In this document: one piece after another, positions 14,935 through 24,156 of the stretch
How the letters are laid out: each line of letters starts with the position of its first letter
Numbering within the stretch: position 1 is the first letter of the stretch
Assembly (NCBI RefSeq): GCF_055900595.2
Contig: NZ_CM148325.1
DNA length: 64,000 nt
Direction: 5' to 3' (one strand)
The notes under the pieces: model-generated
Database searches by the model: none
Told to the model about the DNA's origin: nothing
What the model saw: the letters and a program-made list of their open reading frames with translations, nothing else
Program-made: the position numbers and the translations under genes

Positions 14935-16124
14935 TAAGCACCTCCAAGCGTCGCAAATGCAGGACCAAAGAATTCATCAGTAAACGTCTGGTAAAGTTCC
15001 ATATCCTCAAGCGGCGGAACGGGCGTGTACTTGTAGCGGATACGCACGCGTCCCTGACGAAGTTCCGTGGTGCTGTTATCCACCACGTCATACCAGCACT
15101 CCGCACCAATGAGACGTCCTGACGTAACCAGCGCATCCAGTTTTGCGCGAATTGCGCTTAACACGTCTTTCACATTAGCAGGGGTCAGCGGGGCATCAAT
15201 CGTTTCAAACTGCGCTTCCGCAATGGAATCAGCCAGCACCTGAGCGGTTCGCGTGTACACCTCAAAGAGATACGCCTTCGTTTCCGGCGTACGGTTGCCC
15301 CAGAAGCGGAAACCGTTACGGCAAATGATGGTAGTGATTTCCTTGTTGTTGAGATTGTTGGCATCGCTGTCTTCGGACTGAAGGGACCAGAACACCGGGC
15401 TGGAAATACCCAGCACATTTCTTACCGGCACGTTGGACAGCGATTTATGCCAGCCCTGTTCGTGGTCAATACGTGCACGTAAACCGCAGGCGTACGCCGC
15501 AGCCGGGAAGACCTCATTAGCGCCGGATTTCGGGTTATGGGCGATGAAGTCCGGCCAGACCAGCATAAGTTCGCGCTCGTTAAATCTGGCGCGGTAGCTG
15601 ATTGCATCGGCGGGCTTCTTGCAGTTGTGACAGCCCGCGTAGACAAATGCGCGAAGTTTTTCTGCAATTACACACAGGGATTTTGTGACAGCTTCAGTAT
15701 CCAGTCCGGGAGCTGCGATGATGCGCGGACGGTAACCGATGGCATCATCCTGTTCAGCTATCAGAAGTGCATACATGCCGGTATAGTTTCCGTCATCATC
15801 AGAACCACCGATAACGAGTTTGTCCTGGGTTTGTCCTGAATGCGTCTCTTCCTTAAATTCAGGAACGCGCACCACAATCACCTTCGTGCTCACCTGGTCG
15901 GCGACAGCCTTAAGCGATTTGTAAAGCGTCCCCTTTGTGCCGGCCTTACCCAGCACATCACTGACGCGGGTCAGCAGTGTGGGTTTGTTCAGCGGGAACA
16001 GAGTTTCATCCGCGTCATCTGCCGTAGCCACAATACCAATAACACTGGAATCCACATCATTAATGGCGGTGGCAAGGCCGGTACTTTCCCTTACGCGCGC
16101 ACCATGAAAGCGTGTTTCACTCAT
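14934..16124 (-). CDS. Contractile tail sheath protein, P2 gpFI-like
   Basis: Internal ATG at 16124 (MSETRFHGARV...) gives 396 aa, same length as P2 FI; conserved motifs such as RNGFRFWGNRT. Confidence 0.8.
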   Translation of the reverse strand: MSETRFHGARVRESTGLATAINDVDSSVIGIVATADDADETLFPLNKPTLLTRVSDVLGKAGTKGTLYKSLKAVADQVSTKVIVVRVPEFKEETHSGQTQDKLVIGGSDDDGNYTGMYALLIAEQDDAIGYRPRIIAAPGLDTEAVTKSLCVIAEKLRAFVYAGCHNCKKPADAISYRARFNERELMLVWPDFIAHNPKSGANEVFPAAAYACGLRARIDHEQGWHKSLSNVPVRNVLGISSPVFWSLQSEDSDANNLNNKEITTIICRNGFRFWGNRTPETKAYLFEVYTRTAQVLADSIAEAQFETIDAPLTPANVKDVLSAIRAKLDALVTSGRLIGAECWYDVVDNSTTELRQGRVRIRYKYTPVPPLEDMELYQTFTDEFFGPAFATLGGA

Positions 16125-16200
16125 ATGTTTCACCCTTGTCTGGCTGGTTGATTTTGCGTAATCATTACCCACACACGCGGTAATCTCACCCCTTTGATGT

Positions 16201-16218
16201 TGTCTCCTGACAGCGACA
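16201..16218. promoter_or_regulatory. TGT-N12-ACA dyad, candidate Ogr/Delta-type late activator site between divergent FI and D
   Basis: tgtctcctgacagcgaca lies inside a longer palindrome (ttgttgtc...gacaacaa); about 77 bp from the FI start and about 68 bp from the D start. Confidence 0.4.
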
Positions 16219-16285
16219 ACAAAACAGCCATTCAACGCCGCTGCGGTGCATGAAACCATTACAGAACGCACCAGGAGAGAACACC

Positions 16286-17377
16286 ATGAAAGAGCTGTCA
16301 GTTACCGTTCCGTCACCGGATATCGACATCACCATCAACAACAACACACTGGCAAACCTCACAGAGCGACTCATGACGCTGACCCTGACGGATAACCGGG
16401 CCTTTGAGGCAGACCGCGTCACCCTCACCCTTGACGATACGGACGGGCAGTTACAGTTGCCACCACGTGGCGCACGCCTGAGAGTGATGATTGGCTGGCG
16501 AGGAGAATCACTGGTTAACAAGGGCACCTACGTCGTTGATGAGGTTGCGTGGGAAGGACCTCCAGATAAACTGATCATCACCGCCAGCAGCGCAGATTTT
16601 CGGGAAGAGTTCAACGTGAGGCGGGAGGTATCCTGGCACGACGTGACCGTAAAACAGGTTGTGTCAGCCATCGCTCACCGCTACGGCCTGAAGACACAGA
16701 TAAGCGAAATCCTCATGGATATCGAAATTGACCACGCTGACCAGACCGAAGAGAGCGATATATCCTTCCTGACCCGCATGGCTGAAATGCTGGGTGCGAT
16801 TGCCACCGTAAAAAACGGCAGCCTGTTATTCATTCTGCCGGGTGGCGGAACCGGGCCGGACGGAAGAGCCCTGCCTTCGTTCGCCATTACCCGCAGCAGC
16901 GGCGACAGTCACCGCTTTCGCATTGCTGACCGTGATGCGTATACGGGGGTCCGGGCGCACTGGCTCGATCTGAAGTTCGGGCAAAAGAAAAAAGTGAACG
17001 TGAAGCGACGCAGGGAAGCCGGGAAACAGAAACAGGAGAAGAGCAGCAGCCGGGAGGGTGATTACATGGAAGGCGCGGAAGGGAACGTCTACGTTCTGCG
17101 CAGGACTTACCAGAATGAAGAAACCGCACGACGTGCAGCTGCGGCAAAGTGGCAGGAGTTACAGCGGGGAGCAGCGGCATTCTCCATCACTCTGGCACGG
17201 GGTCGTGCCGACCTGTATCCCGAAATGCACGGCAGGGTAACAGGTTTTAAAAGCGAGGTGGACAATCAGGACTGGATTATTGCCAGGGTGGAGCACATCA
17301 TAGATGAAAGCGGCTTCACCACACAACTGGAGCTGGAAGCGAAAATCCCCGAATGGATAGCAGATTCAGGCGGATAA
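16286..17377 (+). CDS. Tail protein D (late control gene D family), P2 gpD-like
   Basis: ATG at 16286 preceded by aggagag; 363 aa with gpD-type motifs (LTLTDNR.FEAD, FSITLARGRADLYPE). Confidence 0.7.
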   Translation: MKELSVTVPSPDIDITINNNTLANLTERLMTLTLTDNRAFEADRVTLTLDDTDGQLQLPPRGARLRVMIGWRGESLVNKGTYVVDEVAWEGPPDKLIITASSADFREEFNVRREVSWHDVTVKQVVSAIAHRYGLKTQISEILMDIEIDHADQTEESDISFLTRMAEMLGAIATVKNGSLLFILPGGGTGPDGRALPSFAITRSSGDSHRFRIADRDAYTGVRAHWLDLKFGQKKKVNVKRRREAGKQKQEKSSSREGDYMEGAEGNVYVLRRTYQNEETARRAAAAKWQELQRGAAAFSITLARGRADLYPEMHGRVTGFKSEVDNQDWIIARVEHIIDESGFTTQLELEAKIPEWIADSGG

Positions 17378-17420
17378 AATTAAAATGAGCCATCTCCACT
17401 CAGCCAGATAAGGAGAAGCC

Positions 17421-17672
17421 ATGTTCCGTTGTCCCCTATGCGGTGCATCCGCACGTATCCGCACCAGTCGCAATGAAAATGATTCAGGCACAGTTCGCCT
17501 GAAGTACTACCAGTGCAATAACCTCGAATGCGGGATCGGCTTTACCACACTGGAGGGTTTTAACAAATTCACATCAAAACGCGCCCCGTCGCCGCAGGGT
17601 ACAGAGCGGATACCGTGGGAAGATTTTCCGGGATCTCACAGGGGGAATACTCAGATTAATCTTGATATTTAA
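17421..17672 (+). CDS. ogr: Ogr/Delta-family zinc-finger late transcription activator
   Basis: 83 aa; N-terminus MFRCPLCGASARIRTSR...YYQCNNLEC carries the four-Cys Ogr signature; last gene of the P2-type late region. Confidence 0.7.
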   Translation: MFRCPLCGASARIRTSRNENDSGTVRLKYYQCNNLECGIGFTTLEGFNKFTSKRAPSPQGTERIPWEDFPGSHRGNTQINLDI

Positions 17673-17790
17673 GAACAATAATCAGGTTGAGAGGACATCA
17701 TAAGGCAAGTAGATTAACGGCAGATACTTTCCCGCAACCACGGGCAAGTATTTAATTATCCATGATGAAATATGACCTAAATTGTTTTTT

Positions 17791-17816
17791 GCCCGCCGGA
17801 AAGCGGGCATTTTTTT
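17791..17816 (+). terminator. Intrinsic terminator (GC hairpin plus T7), first of a recurring family in the array
   Basis: gcccgccggaaagcgggc then attttttt; T-run only on the plus-strand side. Confidence 0.55.
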
Positions 17817-18030
17817 ATTCTTTTGTGGTTATGGGGTCATCAGGAACCACGTGCAGATTATATTTTTGTTTTTTTGGCGTTCCTCCGGCAGCAACGAGTT
17901 CATCAATAAGACACTGACACGCCTGAACATCCCGGGCATGTCTTAGTTTCACCTTTATTGATTTAACCTTATCCTCACCGGAGGAGAAATGCAGTTCAAT
18001 CTCAATATCGTTTCTTCGGAACAATCTCAT
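17815..18030 (-). CDS. Hypothetical small protein (71 aa) encoded in the 450-bp repeat unit; only this copy is full length
   Basis: MRLFRRNDIEIELHFSSGEDKVKS...; copy at about 19.2 kb differs by two synonymous and one non-synonymous change in the first 7 codons and is truncated to about 35 codons; third copy degenerate. Confidence 0.35.
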   Translation of the reverse strand: MRLFRRNDIEIELHFSSGEDKVKSIKVKLRHARDVQACQCLIDELVAAGGTPKKQKYNLHVVPDDPITTKE

Positions 18031-18254
18031 ACGCCCCCTGAATATATCAGAAATACTAGTATCGAAAAATGAGAAAACAGTTAGACAGGAGAAACATATT
18101 AACACAAATCATTTATACCTATAGATGAAATTATAATTTCATTCATGAATATGATAGATAACTATATTGTGAACAAAATGAAAAATGGCTAAATTAAAAA
18201 TGGGCATGGAGGAATGCCCGGTTATCAATATAATGTGACGTAGATCATTGTTTT

Positions 18255-18281
18255 GCCCGCCGGAGAGCGGGCATTTTTTTT
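18255..18281 (+). terminator. Intrinsic terminator (repeat family)
   Basis: gcccgccggagagcgggc followed by a T8 run. Confidence 0.5.
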
Positions 18282-18465
18282 GCGCCTGCCATCGAGGCGC
18301 CTTCCCTGGCGCACACAAAGCAGCCCTGATTTTCCATGAAAACTTCAGGGTTGAGCTGCGGGCACAAAGTGAGTAGATTAGCTACGGGTACCTCCCCCTG
18401 ACAACAGGAAGGGTGTCCATTATCCATGATATACAAACGAAAAGTCTTGTTTTTTGCCCGCCGAA

Positions 18466-18491
18466 GCGCGGGCATTTTTTTATGCATCAGA
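18466..18491 (+). terminator. Intrinsic terminator (repeat family), immediately upstream of the hok-like locus
   Basis: gcccgccgaagcgcgggc followed by a T7 run. Confidence 0.5.
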
Positions 18492-18607
18492 CAAGATACA
18501 GCCCACCCCAACTGACACCTGAAATATTGCCGCAACAAAAAGAAACAGTTAAATTACGCGCGGGTGCCTTTCGGCTGATGGCCGGAGGGAAAACCTGAAG
18601 GCCGGAT

Positions 18608-18841
18608 GTGGAAAGGCCCCGGAAAACATTTCTGTTTAACCGAGGCCCTAACCGCATTACCTTGACAAGTGAAAGGTTAGCGCCTCTCCGGAAAAGGAGC
18701 AAGTGCTATGTCGCAAAAATCGCTTACGGCCATCACGTTCTGCGTGACGGCAATCCTCATCATCTGGATATTGCACGGTTCGCTGTGCGAAATACGGATG
18801 AGCTTCTGGGGAGCGGAGTTTGCGGCGTTCTTACAATGTAA
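18608..18841 (+). CDS. mok-like overlapping reading frame of the hok-like locus
   Basis: 77-codon frame starting at GTG 100 nt upstream of the hok-like ATG and covering it in another frame, as in hok/mok/sok modules. Confidence 0.4.
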   Translation: MERPRKTFLFNRGPNRITLTSERLAPLRKRSKCYVAKIAYGHHVLRDGNPHHLDIARFAVRNTDELLGSGVCGVLTM

Positions 18842-18848
18842 GAAGTAA
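18708..18848 (+). CDS. Hok-family type I toxin (46 aa), apparently intact
   Basis: ATG at 18708 preceded by aaggag with 8-nt spacing; MSQKSLTAITFCVTAILIIWILHGSLCEIRMSFWGAEFAAFLQCKK has a single TM helix, the Hok SLCEIR motif and the E(F/V)AAF motif; too short for the ORF track. Confidence 0.6.
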   Translation: MSQKSLTAITFCVTAILIIWILHGSLCEIRMSFWGAEFAAFLQCKK

Positions 18849-18947
18849 GGAAACCGCGACGGGGGAGCAATCCCCCGTCAATCGGTTGCCAGGGTAAGGT
18901 CGATAAGGCACCCTATCTCACAGACATGAACAACAAACCCGCAGCAT

Positions 18948-18979
18948 AAAAACTGCGGGTTTTCTTTTTGGTGTCCTCA
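18948..18979 (+). terminator. Intrinsic terminator downstream of the hok-like gene
   Basis: cccgcag cataaaaa ctgcggg followed by tttctttttgg. Confidence 0.5.
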
Positions 18980-20612
18980 CCGACTTGAAACAGTGATCAG
19001 ACTATAAGACAAAGCCCGCAATGTTGCGGGCTTACTCTACCTCTCGAAAATGTGGTCACTGCGTGGACATACGCTGATACAAATCCTTTATATCAATAAA
19101 TTAAATCTTTGTTTTTTTCATCAACAATGATTTAACCTTATCCTCACCGGAGGAGAAATGCAGTTCAATCTCAATATCGTTTCTGTGGAACAGCCTCATA
19201 AGACAACCTCCTGAATTCATCAGAAACACAGTCAACTGAAAACCAGAAAGCAGACAAACAGTGGACACACATTAATACAAATCATTTATACCTATAGATG
19301 AAATTGCAGTTTCATCTATAACATGACAGGTAACAATATTGTGAAAAAACTCAAAACTCGTTAGATTAAAGACGGACAGAGCAATGCTACTTTATCAATA
19401 ACATGTAACCTGTACTTCCTTATTTTGCCCGCCGAAGCACGGGCATTTTTTTTGCGCCTGCCATCGAGGCGCCTTCCCTGGCGCACACAAAGCAGCCCTG
19501 ATTTTCCATGAAAACTTCAGGGTTGAGCCAAAAGCACAAAGACAGTAGATTAACCACGGGTGCCTTCCACCTGACAACAGGAAGGGTGTCCAGTATCAAT
19601 GACAGACAACTCACATTGCTGTTTTGCCCGCCGGAAAGCGGGCATTTTTTTATTCTTTTGTGGTTATTGGGTCATCAGGAACAACATGCAGATTATGCTT
19701 TGATTTTTTTGGTGTTATTACAGCAGCAACGAGTTTATTAATAAGACACTGACATGCCTGAACATCCCTGACATATCATAATTTCACTTTATTTTTTTAG
19801 CTTGTCCTTTCTGGAGCAGAAATATCTCAACATCGTTTCTGTGGAACAACCTCATTTGCCCCTGAATGTATCATAAATATCAGCATCGGAAAACCAACAG
19901 CAATACAGAAGAAACATGTTAATGCAAATCACTTATACCTATAGATGAAATTACAGTTTTGTTCATAAATATGATAAGTAACTATATTGTGAATAAAATG
20001 AAAACTAGCTAAATTAAACGTGGGCATGGTGGAATGCCTCGTAATCAATAATACATGATCCGTACTTCCTTGTTTTGCCCGCCGGAAAGCGGGCATTTTT
20101 TTGGCGGTTACCATCGCCTCACCTTCCTGGTTCACATGAAGCAACCCTGATTTTCCATGAAAACTTCAGGGTTGAGACAAAAGCACAAAGACAGTAGATT
20201 AACCACGGGTACCTTCCACCTGACAACAGGAAGGCTGTCCAGTATCAATGACAGACAACTCACATTGCTGTTTTGCCCGCCGGAAAGCGGGCTTTTTTTG
20301 GCAGTTATCATAGCCGCACCTTCCTGGCACATATGAAGCAACCCTGATTTTCCATGAAAACTTCAGGGTTGAGACAAAAGCACAAAAACAGTAGATTAAC
20401 CACGGGTGCCTGCCACCTGACAACAGGAAGGGGTGTCCATTATCCATGATATACAAACGAAAAGTCTTGTCTTTTGCCCGCCAAAGCGCGGGCATTTTTT
20501 TATGCATCAGACAAGATACAGCCCACCCCAACTAACACCTGAAATATTGCCGCAACAAAAAGAAACGGGTGCCTTTCGGCTGATGGCCGGAGGGAAAACC
20601 TGAAGACCGGAT

Positions 20613-20795
20613 GTGGAAAGGCCCCGGAAAACATCTGTGTTTAACCGAGGCCTGACCCTTCCTACCGTGACAAGTGGAAGGTTAGCGCCTCTTTGTAAAA
20701 GGAGCAAGCGCTATACCGCAAAAAACGATTATTGTTGGCATTTTATGCCTGACAATAACCCTGGTCATCTGGATGGTCCACGATTCGTTATGTGA
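20613..20795 (+). CDS. mok-like frame of the second (decayed) hok-like locus
   Basis: 60-codon frame from GTG, homologous to 18608..18841. Confidence 0.3.
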   Translation: MERPRKTSVFNRGLTLPTVTSGRLAPLCKRSKRYTAKNDYCWHFMPDNNPGHLDGPRFVM

Positions 20796-20853
20796 ATTCA
20801 GCTTTGATATCTGAGGAGCGCGTTTTGCGGCGTTCTTGCAGTGTAAACCGTAA
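20713..20853 (+). pseudogene. Decayed hok-like toxin gene (start codon lost, in-frame nonsense codon)
   Basis: Alignment to copy 1 by eye: ATG is ATA at 20713-20715 and TGG is TGA at 20812-20814; remaining frame IPQKTIIVGILCLTITLVIWMVHDSLCEFSFDI* still shows the Hok core. Confidence 0.5.
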
Positions 20854-21003
20854 GAAACCGCAGCGGGGGAGAAATTCCCCGCTATCCGGTTGTTGGGGTG
20901 GGCCGATATGGCGCCCTTTCCCTGTAGAGACAAAACAAAAAACCAGATTTGCCCGCCATTGAGAGGGCTTTTTTGTCACCCTCACCAGTGAGGGCATCAT
21001 CAT

Positions 21004-21231
21004 TCAGAGGCGCGTAAGCCACCCGGCGTTAACATCCTGCCTGTCAACCCTGGCCGCAGAGTCTGAACGGCAGGTACCGGAAGGAGTACCAAAAACATCC
21101 CTGACAAGTTCCGCCACCTTCCCGATATCATCAGGTGTCACATTCCTCACCTCGGCCGTGATCCGTGGCGTACCATCATCGTTAACAAGAGTGGCTTTAA
21201 AGCTGGTGCGAAGGGAAAACAACATCAACAT
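21004..21231 (-). CDS. Hypothetical small protein (75 aa) between the repeat array and serS
   Basis: ORF only; not recognised; absent from my recollection of the K-12 serS-dmsA spacer. Confidence 0.25.
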   Translation of the reverse strand: MLMLFSLRTSFKATLVNDDGTPRITAEVRNVTPDDIGKVAELVRDVFGTPSGTCRSDSAARVDRQDVNAGWLTRL

Positions 21232-21386
21232 CCCCTCCCTTTGGTTCGTTGCACTGACGGCACGACACCATCAGGAAAAAGAAAAGCCCACAACGTCAGT
21301 ATTGTGGACTTTTTTCTTCAAAGATGGACATTATCTGGACACATGAAAATAAAATCCATTTATTTTCATATAGTTAAGTACCATGC

Positions 21387-21410
21387 AAAAGCGCCCGCAG
21401 GCGCTTTTTA
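21387..21410 (-). terminator. serS terminator (bidirectional-looking hairpin)
   Basis: aaaagcgcc cgca ggcgctttt immediately 3' of the serS stop. Confidence 0.55.
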
Positions 21411-21429
21411 GATTCAGAAAAATTGGGTA

Positions 21430-22743
<1,314 letters not shown>

Positions 22744-22812
22744 TTAAATGGGAGATGTGGCCACAGCCTGCGACCACAGGGATACAGTAACAACATTACC
22801 GCAACGATAACA

Positions 22813-24156
22813 TTAACGGTAGCGTTTTATGGGGCTATTTTGATCCTGTTCAGCCAGCCAGGCGAGCTTTTCGCCAATCTTGCCTTCAAGGCCCCTGTTT
22901 GTCGGGAAATAATAGCGTGTTTGTGCTATTTCCGGCGGGAAGTAAACCTCACCGGCAGCATAAGCGTTTGCTTCATCATGAGCATAACGATATTCCTGAC
23001 CGTAGCCCATTTCCTTCATTAATTTCGTCGGCGCATTACGCAAATGAACCGGCACGTCATAATCCGGACGTTCGCGAGCATCGGCCAGCGCGGCTTTAAA
23101 TGCGGTATAGACAGCGTTACTTTTTGGCGCGCAGGCCAGGTAAACAATCGCCTGAGCAATGGCACGTTCACCTTCAGCCGGACCAACGCGAGTAAAGCAA
23201 TCCCAGGCCGCAATTGCCACCTGCATCGCCCGTGGGTCAGCATTACCCACATCTTCAGACGCAATCGCCAGGCAGCGACGCGCGACATATAACGGATCTC
23301 CACCGGCGGTAATAATTCGCGCATACCAGTACAGCGCCGCATCGGGTGCGCTCCCACGCACCGATTTATGCAGTGCAGAGATCAGATCGTAAAAGCGATC
23401 GCCTTTGTTATCAAAGCGGGCGCTACGCTCACCGGCGATTTCGGTCAGTAATTCAGGCTTCAGGACTCGCTTACCGCTATCATCGACTTCAGCCATATCC
23501 GCCATCATTTCCAGCGTATTTAACGCGCGGCGCGCGTCGCCATTCACCAATTCAGCGATGGCGCGTCTTGTTTCACCCGGCAGAACGATATCCTGACCAC
23601 CATAACCGCGGGTTTTGTCTTCCATCGCCTGAGTCAGTACCTGTTCGATATCCTCTGTACTCAGGGATTTCAACAGGTAGACACGGGCACGGGAAAGCAG
23701 TGCCGAATTAAGCTCAAATGACGGGTTTTCAGTGGTTGCACCAATAAAAGTGATGGTGCCGTCTTCGATATGTGGCAGAAATGCATCCTGCTGACTTTTG
23801 TTGAAACGGTGAACTTCGTCAACAAAAAGAATAGTGCGGCGACCAGCATTGCGGTTTTGCCGAGCGCGCTCGATCGCCTCGCGAATCTCTTTCACGCCAG
23901 AGGTGACGGCAGAAATACGTTCCACATCAGCGTTCGCATAACGGGCTATAACTTCAGCGAGGGTTGTTTTGCCGGTACCCGGTGGCCCCCAGAGGATCAT
24001 AGAATGCAAATGCCCAGCTTCGATAGCGCGCGGCAATGGCTTCCCGGCAGCCAGCAAATGTTGCTGGCCGATATACTGTGCTAAATTTTCTGGCCGCATA
24101 CGCGCGGCCAGAGGTTGAAAAGTATTATCCGAAAAATCGAGCGACAGATTGCTCAC
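22813..24156 (-). CDS. rarA: Replication-associated recombination protein A (AAA+ ATPase)
   Basis: 447 aa; Walker [10 protein letters not shown]; conserved position between lolA and serS. Confidence 0.93.

What the first reader, a model, noticed from the sequence alone, without database searches (positions are those of the whole stretch)
17815..18030. Small protein gene in the 450-bp repeat: one full-length copy and two decayed copies
On the minus strand the first 450-bp unit encodes a 71-aa protein (MRLFRRNDIEIELHFSSGEDKVKSIKVKLRHARDVQACQCLIDELVAAGGTPKKQKYNLHVVPDDPITTKE). The second unit (start near 19190) begins MRLFHRNDIEIELHFSSGEDKVKS with two synonymous and one non-synonymous difference in the first 7 codons, then truncates at about 35 codons. 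The third is further degenerate. The synonymous pattern argues for coding on the minus strand rather than the alternative 27-codon plus-strand frame behind the ggagga motif. I do not recognise the family.
Basis: partly seen in the sequence, partly recalled or inferred. Interest (0 to 1): 0.45.

Follow-up and report, generated by a model that had tools for sequence, protein, structure and literature searches.

The report
Small prophage accessory protein gene
The 71-codon reading frame is a real protein gene carried as optional cargo by a P2-type prophage of E. coli; it belongs to a widespread phage protein family that nobody has characterised, so what it does is still unknown.

Summary
An intact 71-aa ORF lies at 17815-18030 on the minus strand, with two decayed copies at about 19127-19199 and 19640-19855.

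ORF71 matches the C-terminal half of PHROG 14142 (E 4.9e-12). This is an unnamed family of about 128-aa proteins in Enterobacterales. Its reading frame is under strong purifying selection (dN/dS 0.04-0.36, synonymous sites saturated).

Family members occupy the same slot: the right arm of P2-like prophages, convergent with ogr/hok. One short form sits in P4-like satellites. ORF71 is a stand-alone version of the conserved domain. AlphaFold2 predicts a beta-hairpin plus a helix, followed by a disordered tail. ORF71 has its own ribosome-binding site. It occurs in only 30 of 5,426 complete E. coli genomes and always travels with the prophage.

The copies reflect rearrangement inside the prophage's accessory arm (ogr to attR). 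Copy 2 is cut exactly at an inner phage-end junction. Copy 3 carries frameshifts and a stop codon.

Pfam, NCBIfam, PADLOC, PDB sequence search and fold search gave no function. My best guess is a lysogen-expressed small binding protein, and I hold it weakly. The finding is a modest one: a new, truncated member of a known but uncharacterised family.

The parts
17815..18030 (-). ORF71, intact 71-aa coding sequence (stop codon included). It is a stand-alone copy of the C-terminal domain of PHROG 14142.
   Evidence: ORF and PGAP CDS WP_001236182.1; PHROG E 4.9e-12; homologues; dN/dS; AF2 core pLDDT 75-80
18034..18039 (-). Shine-Dalgarno-like AGGGGG, 3-4 nt before the ATG. The unit-2 allele has AGGAGG, despite indels around it.
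   Evidence: read from the sequence
18105..18142 (.). The most conserved stretch upstream of ORF71 in all three units. It contains TATAAAT on the minus strand and the palindrome ATGAAA-N6-TTTCAT (18125-18142), whose half-sites are kept while the spacer varies. It is a candidate promoter/operator and has not been tested.
   Evidence: The simple sigma-70 scan found no consensus promoter here.
17687..17816 (+). Unit A': a promoter-like TTGAGA-17-TAGATT followed by a predicted RNA of about 98 nt that ends in the terminator TGCCCGCCGGAAAGCGGGCA-T7. It is convergent with ORF71, and its T-run overlaps the ORF71 stop codon.
18183..18285 (+). B-type sRNA-like unit with terminator, divergent from ORF71 and part of the 450-bp repeat. 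Candidate promoter ATGATA-17-CAAAAT at 18151-18179.
   Evidence: prediction only
19127..19199 (-). Copy 2 of the gene. Codons 1-24 are retained, and the rest is replaced at the junction 19126/19127.
19043..19126 (+). Inner phage right end. It has integrase arm-type repeats (TGGTCA at 19053, TGGACA at 19064) and a core-proximal sequence 86-89% identical to the right ends of phages PhiR44_2 and 500465-2. It joins copy 2 at the microhomology TGATTT.
19640..19855 (-). Copy 3 of the gene, a pseudogene with an 8-bp and a 2-bp deletion and a TGA at codon 30. Its 3' half still reads RDVQACQCLINKLVAAVITPKK...
17421..17672 (+). The prophage's ogr/Delta zinc-finger late activator gene. ORF71 is convergent with it.
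18708..18848 (+). Intact hok toxin gene, with a sok-like RNA region at 18562-18721. A decayed second copy lies at 20567-20850, where the start codon ATG has become ATA.
21387..21401 (.). attR core AAAAGCGCCCGCAGG, inside the serS terminator. Integrase arm repeats (TGGACA twice) lie at 21325-21341. This marks the right boundary of the prophage that carries everything listed above.

Best explanation
ORF71 is a genuine protein-coding accessory ('moron') gene of a P88-like, P2-type (Peduoviridae) prophage. The prophage is integrated by a 15-bp core into the serS terminator.

Shown: ORF71 encodes a stand-alone version of the conserved C-terminal domain of an uncharacterised family of about 128 aa (PHROG 14142). 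Members of this family sit in the cargo slot at the right end of P2-like prophages, convergent with ogr/hok, and one short form sits in P4-like satellites. The predicted core is a two-stranded beta-hairpin packed on one amphipathic helix, followed by a disordered Lys-rich tail. The family's N-terminal domain is absent.

The three copies are products of rearrangement in the ogr-to-attR arm. Copy 1 is the working gene. Copy 2 was cut where a second phage right end joins it. Copy 3 decayed by frameshifts.

Inferred, not shown: the gene is transcribed on its own from the conserved upstream block, probably in the lysogen. The product would act as a small, probably dimeric, binding protein that targets a protein or nucleic-acid partner in phage-host or phage-phage conflict, for example exclusion or defence, or control of the neighbouring RNA units. 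I put about 0.9 on 'real gene, this family, phage cargo' and about 0.3 on the proposed mode of action.
For: Coding and family membership:
- The ORF and the PGAP CDS agree.
- ORF71 matches PHROG 14142 at E 4.9e-12, over profile positions 72-127 of 128.
- Exhaustive HMMER and profile searches find 60 or more relatives in at least 10 genera.
- ORF71 keeps every invariant residue of the family: M1, L3, E10, E12, L29, R30, C38, L41.
- pN is 0.02-0.36 against pS of 0.55-1.0.
- A Shine-Dalgarno sequence is kept in two diverged upstream alleles.

Cargo status:
- ORF71 is present in only 30 of 5,426 E. coli genomes.
- It moves with the prophage to the copA and zapB sites.
- It lies between attL and attR.
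- Homologues lie next to ogr or hok at prophage edges, and one after the primase of P4-like satellites, each followed by its own terminator.

Copy history:
- Junction with an inner phage end.
- Frameshifts in copy 3.
- A related prophage lacks one 1.17-kb repeat.

Fold: AlphaFold2 gives the core a pLDDT of 75-80.
Against: - There is no transcript, ribosome-profiling or proteomic evidence, and the simple scan finds no consensus sigma-70 promoter for ORF71.
- ORF71 has no canonical terminator of its own on the minus strand (read from the sequence).
- The intact ORF71 copies differ by only a few substitutions and are identical in most genomes, so selection within this lineage cannot be measured.
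- Several 'short' family members are truncations or mis-called start codons, so a C-domain-only form need not be functional.
Confidence: 0.7

Rival explanations
1. ORF71 is a relic. It would be the C-terminal remnant of a 128-aa gene that happens to keep an open frame from the conserved internal methionine, and it would be non-functional or on its way to decay like copies 2 and 3.
For: The N-terminal domain is missing without trace. Other family members are 5'-truncated at residue 45, or are long forms called short. Two of the three local copies are dead. The gene is rare, in 30 of 5,426 genomes. No selection can be measured within the lineage.
Against: ORF71 shares only 35-54% identity with its relatives, yet it keeps every invariant residue and has no stop codon or frameshift. 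By contrast, copy 3 picked up two indels and a stop at only about 16% nucleotide divergence. A ribosome-binding site is kept in two diverged upstream alleles. An independent C-domain-only lineage (P0010) exists in P4-like satellites, with its own Shine-Dalgarno sequence and terminator. ORF71 is annotated as an intact CDS at the best match in all 30 genomes.
Confidence: 0.15
2. ORF71 and the flanking RNA-like units form a regulated cassette A'-ORF71-A. This would be a toxin-antitoxin-like or sRNA-controlled module, in which the convergent A' RNA (or the divergent B-type RNA) controls ORF71 mRNA. It would resemble the type I loci that also occur as long direct repeats with dead copies.
For: The roughly 850-bp A'-B-A block is an insertion relative to phages P88 and PhiR44_2, where ogr abuts hok/sok. 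The A units and ORF71 occur in exactly the same 30 genomes. The terminator of A' overlaps the ORF71 stop codon, and ORF71 has no terminator of its own. The A units keep their promoter hexamers and their hairpin/terminator layout. The block sits next to hok/sok.
Against: ORF71 is hydrophilic and no transmembrane segment is apparent, unlike the membrane-peptide toxins typical of type I systems (established knowledge). Other family members lack these RNA units. Duplex energies between the RNAs and the ORF71 5' region are no better than for shuffled sequences. There is almost no covariation, with 1 compensatory pair. No Rfam family matches.
Confidence: 0.15
3. The repeat is non-coding. The minus-strand ORF would be incidental, and either the plus-strand 27-codon frame behind GGAGGA or an RNA would be the functional product.
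For: The plus-strand frame 17989-18072 has a GGAGGA motif ahead of its ATG. The upstream non-coding part of the unit is about as conserved as the ORF between units 1 and 3, 82% against 83.5%.
Against: The minus-strand frame has homologues across genera under purifying selection. By my reading of the sequence, the plus-strand frame stops after 18 codons in unit 2; its ATG is deleted in unit 3. GGAGGA is simply the complement of the Ser-Ser codons TCC TCC.
Confidence: 0.03

Closest known systems
PHROG 14142: an unnamed 128-aa prophage protein family of Enterobacterales, deposited everywhere as 'hypothetical protein'
   Same: Residues 1-56 of ORF71 align to profile positions 72-127 (E 4.9e-12), and all invariant residues are kept. 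Like ORF71, the family is single-gene cargo in the right arm of P2-like prophages, convergent with ogr/hok.
   Different: ORF71 lacks the 71-aa N-terminal domain and carries a unique C-terminal tail of about 20 aa. It sits between ogr and hok rather than beyond hok at the att edge. It is flanked by sRNA-like units that other members do not have.
[quoted passage not shown] Published hotspots are gpA-gpQ and Z/fun in P2, and psu-int in P4 (PMC9122126).
   Same: ORF71 is an independent gene in a variable region of the same phage group, with a patchy distribution, next to a toxin-antitoxin locus.
   Different: The ogr-attR slot is not mentioned in the main text of the two hotspot papers I checked; 'ogr' has zero occurrences in both. 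ORF71 has no homology to any PADLOC defence protein, and no activity has been tested.
Type I toxin-antitoxin loci in long direct repeats (hok/sok, ldr/rdl, ibs/sib; from established knowledge)
   Same: Repeated units of about 450 bp with one intact and several decayed copies. A small ORF with adjacent small-RNA-like units. Physically next to a hok/sok locus.
   Different: The product is hydrophilic and soluble-looking, not a membrane peptide. No antisense overlap or complementarity has been shown. The repeats here arise from prophage-arm rearrangement.

Membership tests
PHROG 14142 family | Significant match to the family profile | tested here: met
   E 4.9e-12, 46.9 bits, residues 1-56 against profile positions 72-127 of 128. 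Profile searches recover ORF71 together with the family.
PHROG 14142 family | Full-length architecture: N-terminal alpha/beta domain plus C-terminal domain, about 128 aa | tested here: not met
   ORF71 covers only the C-terminal half. tblastn with ten N-domain queries finds no trace upstream of ORF71. It is therefore a domain-level member, not a full-length one.
PHROG 14142 family | Invariant residues of the C-domain (M, L, E, E, L, R, C, L) | tested here: met
   M1, L3, E10, E12, L29, R30, C38 and L41 are all present. Only the near-invariant G2 is replaced, by R.
PHROG 14142 family | Located in P2-like prophage or P4-like satellite cargo regions | tested here: met
   ORF71 lies between ogr and attR of a P88-like prophage. 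Homologues lie next to ogr or hok at prophage edges, and one in P4-like satellites.
Type I toxin-antitoxin system | Small hydrophobic, membrane-active toxin | tested here: not met
   The sequence is charged and hydrophilic, with no hydrophobic stretch long enough for a membrane helix by eye. AF2 predicts a hairpin plus an amphipathic helix. No dedicated transmembrane predictor was run.
Type I toxin-antitoxin system | Antisense RNA that base-pairs with the toxin mRNA | tested here: inconclusive
   A' is convergent and its terminator overlaps the stop codon, but the transcripts are only predicted. No trans complementarity above that of shuffled sequences.
Known anti-phage defence proteins (PADLOC-DB v2) | Match to a defence-system protein model | tested here: not met
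   No hit at E up to 1 for ORF71, P0009, P0010, P0011 or P0027.
Curated protein families (Pfam-A, NCBIfam) and solved structures | Any significant sequence or fold match | tested here: not met

The most novel reading that the evidence does not exclude
The roughly 850-bp block A'-ORF71-A may be a self-contained phage cassette of a new kind. In it, a small soluble protein (the minimal domain of PHROG 14142) would work together with, or be controlled by, members of an undescribed family of about 97-nt sRNAs. The wider ogr-attR arm, with eight paralogous sRNA-like units, would then be an RNA-based accessory or conflict locus of P2-like phages.
Probability: 0.15. Interest if true: 0.6.

Novelty: new member of a known kind. 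Interest (0 to 1): 0.3.

Why it matters
The finding turns an orphan-looking ORF into a handle on a family. About 60 protein clusters in at least ten enterobacterial genera sit in one conserved slot, at the att-proximal end of P2-like prophages next to hok/sok, and none has a name, a domain assignment or a structure.

ORF71 and the satellite-borne 57-aa form define the minimal conserved unit, roughly 50 residues. That is the natural construct for a first functional test.

The finding also documents that the ogr-attR arm is a cargo region. The two hotspot papers I checked do not mention it in their main text. The locus gives a worked example of how nested prophage integration and recombination between repeats produce 'one live, two dead' gene copies.

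If the gene proves to be an exclusion or defence factor, or a regulator of the adjacent RNA units, it would add a new small-protein player to phage-phage conflict. If not, it remains an ordinary hypothetical phage gene.

Tried and rejected
- Rfam scan of 15000-23000 at E up to 1: only the two sok-like hits, both below the gathering score. Nothing for the repeat units.
- tblastn of ORF71 and of the long form P0009 against the phage and plasmid collections: no match. blastn of an A unit against phages: no match.
- AF2 of the long form P0009 with 56 sequences: pLDDT 52, too poor to use.
- Fold searches with the ORF71 model: noise only. The afdb50 library was not available.
- Scanning all 56 family members against Pfam at E up to 5: scattered hits, at most 3 of 56 members for any family. 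The EACC1 hit (2 members, E 0.17) is not evidence.
- Idea that ORF75 (21004-21231, in the position where relatives carry the family gene) is a divergent member: rejected. hhalign probability is 0.2-0.3%, and there is no BLASTP match to P88 gp53.
- Idea that the sRNA-like units pair with the ORF71 5' region: duplex energies within 2 sd of shuffled sequences for all units except B3 (z = -2.01); no consistent signal (the first attempt timed out).
- Degenerate promoter pattern searched in IMG/VR: one extra hit, L031, which looks like an unrelated, GC-rich phage contig and a chance match.
- Literature searches for the accession, the PHROG and the phage genus found nothing about this gene.
- I could not define a convincing sigma-70 promoter for ORF71 by eye or with the scan.

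Full report
**Setting**

The window is E. coli chromosome. serS (21430-22722, minus), rarA and lolA lie to the right of the finding. To the left are P2-type phage genes: tail sheath, gpD (16250-17377) and the Ogr/Delta zinc-finger gene (17421-17672).

In a 99.9% identical genome the prophage runs from an integrase next to dmsA to the serS terminator. Comparison with K-12 shows a 15-bp core, CCTGCGGGCGCTTTT in the serS sense. The core is duplicated at both ends, and the right copy is at window 21387-21401. Integrase arm-type TGGACA repeats lie just inside both ends. Everything from ogr to 21386, including the finding, therefore lies inside the prophage.

The nearest phages in GenBank are P88 (Xuanwuvirus), PhiR44_2 and 500465-2. 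They share the hok/sok segment but not the repeat units.

**The observation**

PGAP annotates it as WP_001236182.1, hypothetical protein.

The three units (17780-18262, 19090-19434, 19615-20084) are 79-81% identical to each other.
- Copy 2 keeps codons 1-24, with two synonymous changes and R5H, then diverges and stops at codon 33.
- Copy 3 has an 8-bp deletion, a 2-bp deletion and a TGA at codon 30.

**Is it coding?**

Local evidence is thin. Between units 1 and 3 there are 12 synonymous and 16 non-synonymous codon changes. In the 3' half the split is 8 against 6. The ORF is no better conserved than its upstream region, 83.5% against 82%.

External evidence settles the question.
- A word-indexed search found only near-identical E. 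coli sequences.
- An exhaustive HMMER scan of 1.84 billion representatives then found three true distant relatives at 42-47% identity. Two other hits were repeat proteins that I judged spurious.
- Profile searches expanded these to about 60 clusters in Salmonella, Citrobacter, Enterobacter, Klebsiella, Yersinia, Pectobacterium, Pantoea, Kosakonia, Sodalis and Symbiopectobacterium. All are deposited as 'hypothetical protein'.
- ORF71 matches PHROG 14142 (function unknown) at E 4.9e-12, over profile positions 72-127 of 128.
- It keeps every invariant residue of the family.
- Across seven members whose DNA I could retrieve, synonymous sites are saturated (pS 0.55-1.0) while pN is 0.02-0.36. That gives dN/dS of 0.04-0.36, and 0.23-0.36 for pairs that include ORF71.
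- The plus-strand 27-codon frame is not conserved. By my reading it would stop after 18 codons in unit 2, and its ATG is deleted in unit 3. Its GGAGGA is the complement of the TCC TCC codons.

**Architecture of the family**

Typical members are about 128 aa. They have an N-terminal domain of about 71 aa, then the domain that ORF71 represents, which begins at an invariant internal Met.

Many '57-aa' database entries are not truly short. In one locus the N-domain is in frame behind a GTG start. In two others the gene is cut at residue 45.

ORF71 and the satellite-borne P0010 show no trace of the N-domain, so they are genuine C-domain-only genes. ORF71 also has its own tail of about 20 residues.

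AlphaFold2 with 56 sequences predicts a beta-hairpin (residues 9-15 and 23-29) and a helix (35-48) at pLDDT 75-80, with residues 52-71 disordered. The conserved D/E residues on strand 1 alternate with hydrophobic residues, and so do the K/R residues on strand 2. I read this as an amphipathic hairpin. The long form modelled poorly, with pLDDT 52.

**Genomic context of the relatives**

- The 133-aa P0011 lies between the host gene fabB and ogr, convergent with ogr, just as ORF71 does.
- P0013, P0017 and P0050 lie at the very edge of P2-like prophages at several different host sites, convergent with a hok gene.
- P0010 follows the primase of P4-like satellites.
- Each has its own terminator.

ORF71 itself is in only 30 of 5,426 complete E. 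coli genomes. It travels with the prophage to other sites: upstream of copA, and the zapB side of glpF with the same 15-bp core. This is the signature of optional phage cargo.

The two papers on P2/P4 hotspots that I checked do not mention ogr in their main text.

**Why one live and two dead copies?**

The arm from ogr to attR is built of three kinds of module:
- A units: RNA-like, five copies.
- B units: the ORF71 unit, three copies.
- C units: hok/sok, one intact and one with the start codon ATG changed to ATA.

Relative to P88 and PhiR44_2, where ogr abuts hok/sok, the block A'-B1-A (17673 to about 18525) is an insertion.

Just left of copy 2, window 19043-19130 is 86-89% identical to the extreme right ends of PhiR44_2 and 500465-2. 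This stretch includes an arm-site pair (TGGTCA at 19053, TGGACA at 19064). Identity stops at 19126/19127, inside a TGATTT microhomology with the intact gene. So copy 2 was cut where a second phage end joined it. The most economical reading is integration or recombination of one P2-like phage into the ORF71 region of a resident relative, followed by loss of the duplicated genome. That reading is inference.

Two other observations fit this history.
- An IMG/VR contig (L010) carries an intact ORF whose upstream region and first seven codons are the copy-2 allele, while the rest is identical to copy 1. It is either the undisrupted ancestor or a recombinant between the two copies.
- A related prophage (SCU-115) lacks exactly one 1.17-kb repeat.

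Copy 3 is simply a frameshifted paralogue. Its 3' half still reads ...KLVAAVITPKK, which is closer to the family consensus than ORF71 is.

**Function**

Nothing assigns one.
- Pfam, NCBIfam and PADLOC give no hit.
- The PDB profile search's best hit is E 0.48.

Upstream of ORF71 there is a Shine-Dalgarno sequence, AGGGGG. It is AGGAGG in the other allele despite indels nearby. There is also a 26-nt block conserved in all three units (identical in units 1 and 2, one mismatch in unit 3) and a palindrome, ATGAAA-N6-TTTCAT, whose half-sites persist while the spacer changes. No consensus promoter was found.

The gene has no canonical terminator of its own. The hairpin after its stop codon is the plus-strand terminator of the convergent unit A'.

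My working model is a lysogen-expressed, independently transcribed small protein that acts by binding a partner. It is possibly autoregulated at the palindrome or influenced by the convergent RNA. I hold this at roughly 0.3. The alternatives are a relic and a TA-like cassette, and I give each about 0.15.

**Verdict**

The finding is a real but ordinary hypothetical phage gene, now placed in a family and in a precise genomic slot. It is a new, truncated member of a known but uncharacterised kind. Interest is about 0.3. The flanking array of RNA-like units is the more unusual feature and is listed separately.

Noticed in passing
window 17687-17816, 18351-18481, 19523-19651, 20172-20299, 20369-20501 (A-type); 18183-18285, 19355-19455, 20003-20104 (B-type): This is an array of eight paralogous sRNA-like units on the plus strand. 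Each ends in nearly the same terminator (TGCCCGCC-N6-GCGGGCA followed by a T-run); a ninth, more diverged terminator-like copy lies near 20948. The A-type units keep the promoter-like hexamers TTGAGA/C and TAGATT while the 17-nt spacer varies. They are predicted to give RNAs of about 97 nt with a 5' hairpin, a single-stranded UAUC(A/C)AUGA stretch and a terminator. No Rfam family matches. The units occur only in the 30 E. coli genomes that carry ORF71. Covariation support is minimal (1 compensatory pair).
   Followed up: partly
window 18562-18848 and 20567-20850: There are two hok/sok loci. The first has an intact 46-aa Hok (Pfam HOK_GEF, E 8e-7) and a sok-like RNA at 46 bits, below Rfam's gathering score of 59. 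The second is decayed: its start codon ATG has become ATA and it has an in-frame TGA.
   Followed up: partly
window 21387-21401 and 21325-21341; L022 19760-19800: The prophage attachment core is 15 bp (CCTGCGGGCGCTTTT) inside the serS rho-independent terminator, so integration rebuilds the terminator stem. The same core is used at a second site beside zapB in strain SCU-115. TGGACA arm repeats flank both ends.
   Followed up: yes
window 21004-21231 (minus): This is a 75-aa ORF at the extreme right end of the prophage, convergent with the decayed hok. It is in the position where related prophages carry the PHROG 14142 gene. PGAP annotates the corresponding ORF in two related genomes (WP_089623492.1 at the same locus; WP_029490443.1 at the copA-site prophage). 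No relation to the family was detected (hhalign probability 0.2%), and no Pfam hit.
   Followed up: partly
L011 6923-7309, L024 5788-6174, L028 6001-6387 (relatives): In the long-form genes the domain boundary is an invariant Met preceded by a purine-rich, Shine-Dalgarno-like stretch (for example GCAGGGGTTATTATG in L011). Gene callers often start there. Internal initiation could give a separate C-domain product from the long genes. This was not tested.
   Followed up: no
L023 about 5915 and L026 about 5915 (relatives): Two independent 5'-truncated family genes share the same breakpoint, at Cys45 (sequence TTGCTTCTC...), but have unrelated upstream sequences. This suggests a recurrent recombination point or a cassette boundary within the gene.
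   Followed up: no
window 18290-18350, 19460-19522, 20110-20171, 20310-20368: Each spacer between a terminator and the next A-type promoter carries two conserved hairpins: GCGCCT-N7-AGGCGC and CCCTGA-N14-TCAGGG, the second with an ATG in its loop. Their role is unknown.
   Followed up: no
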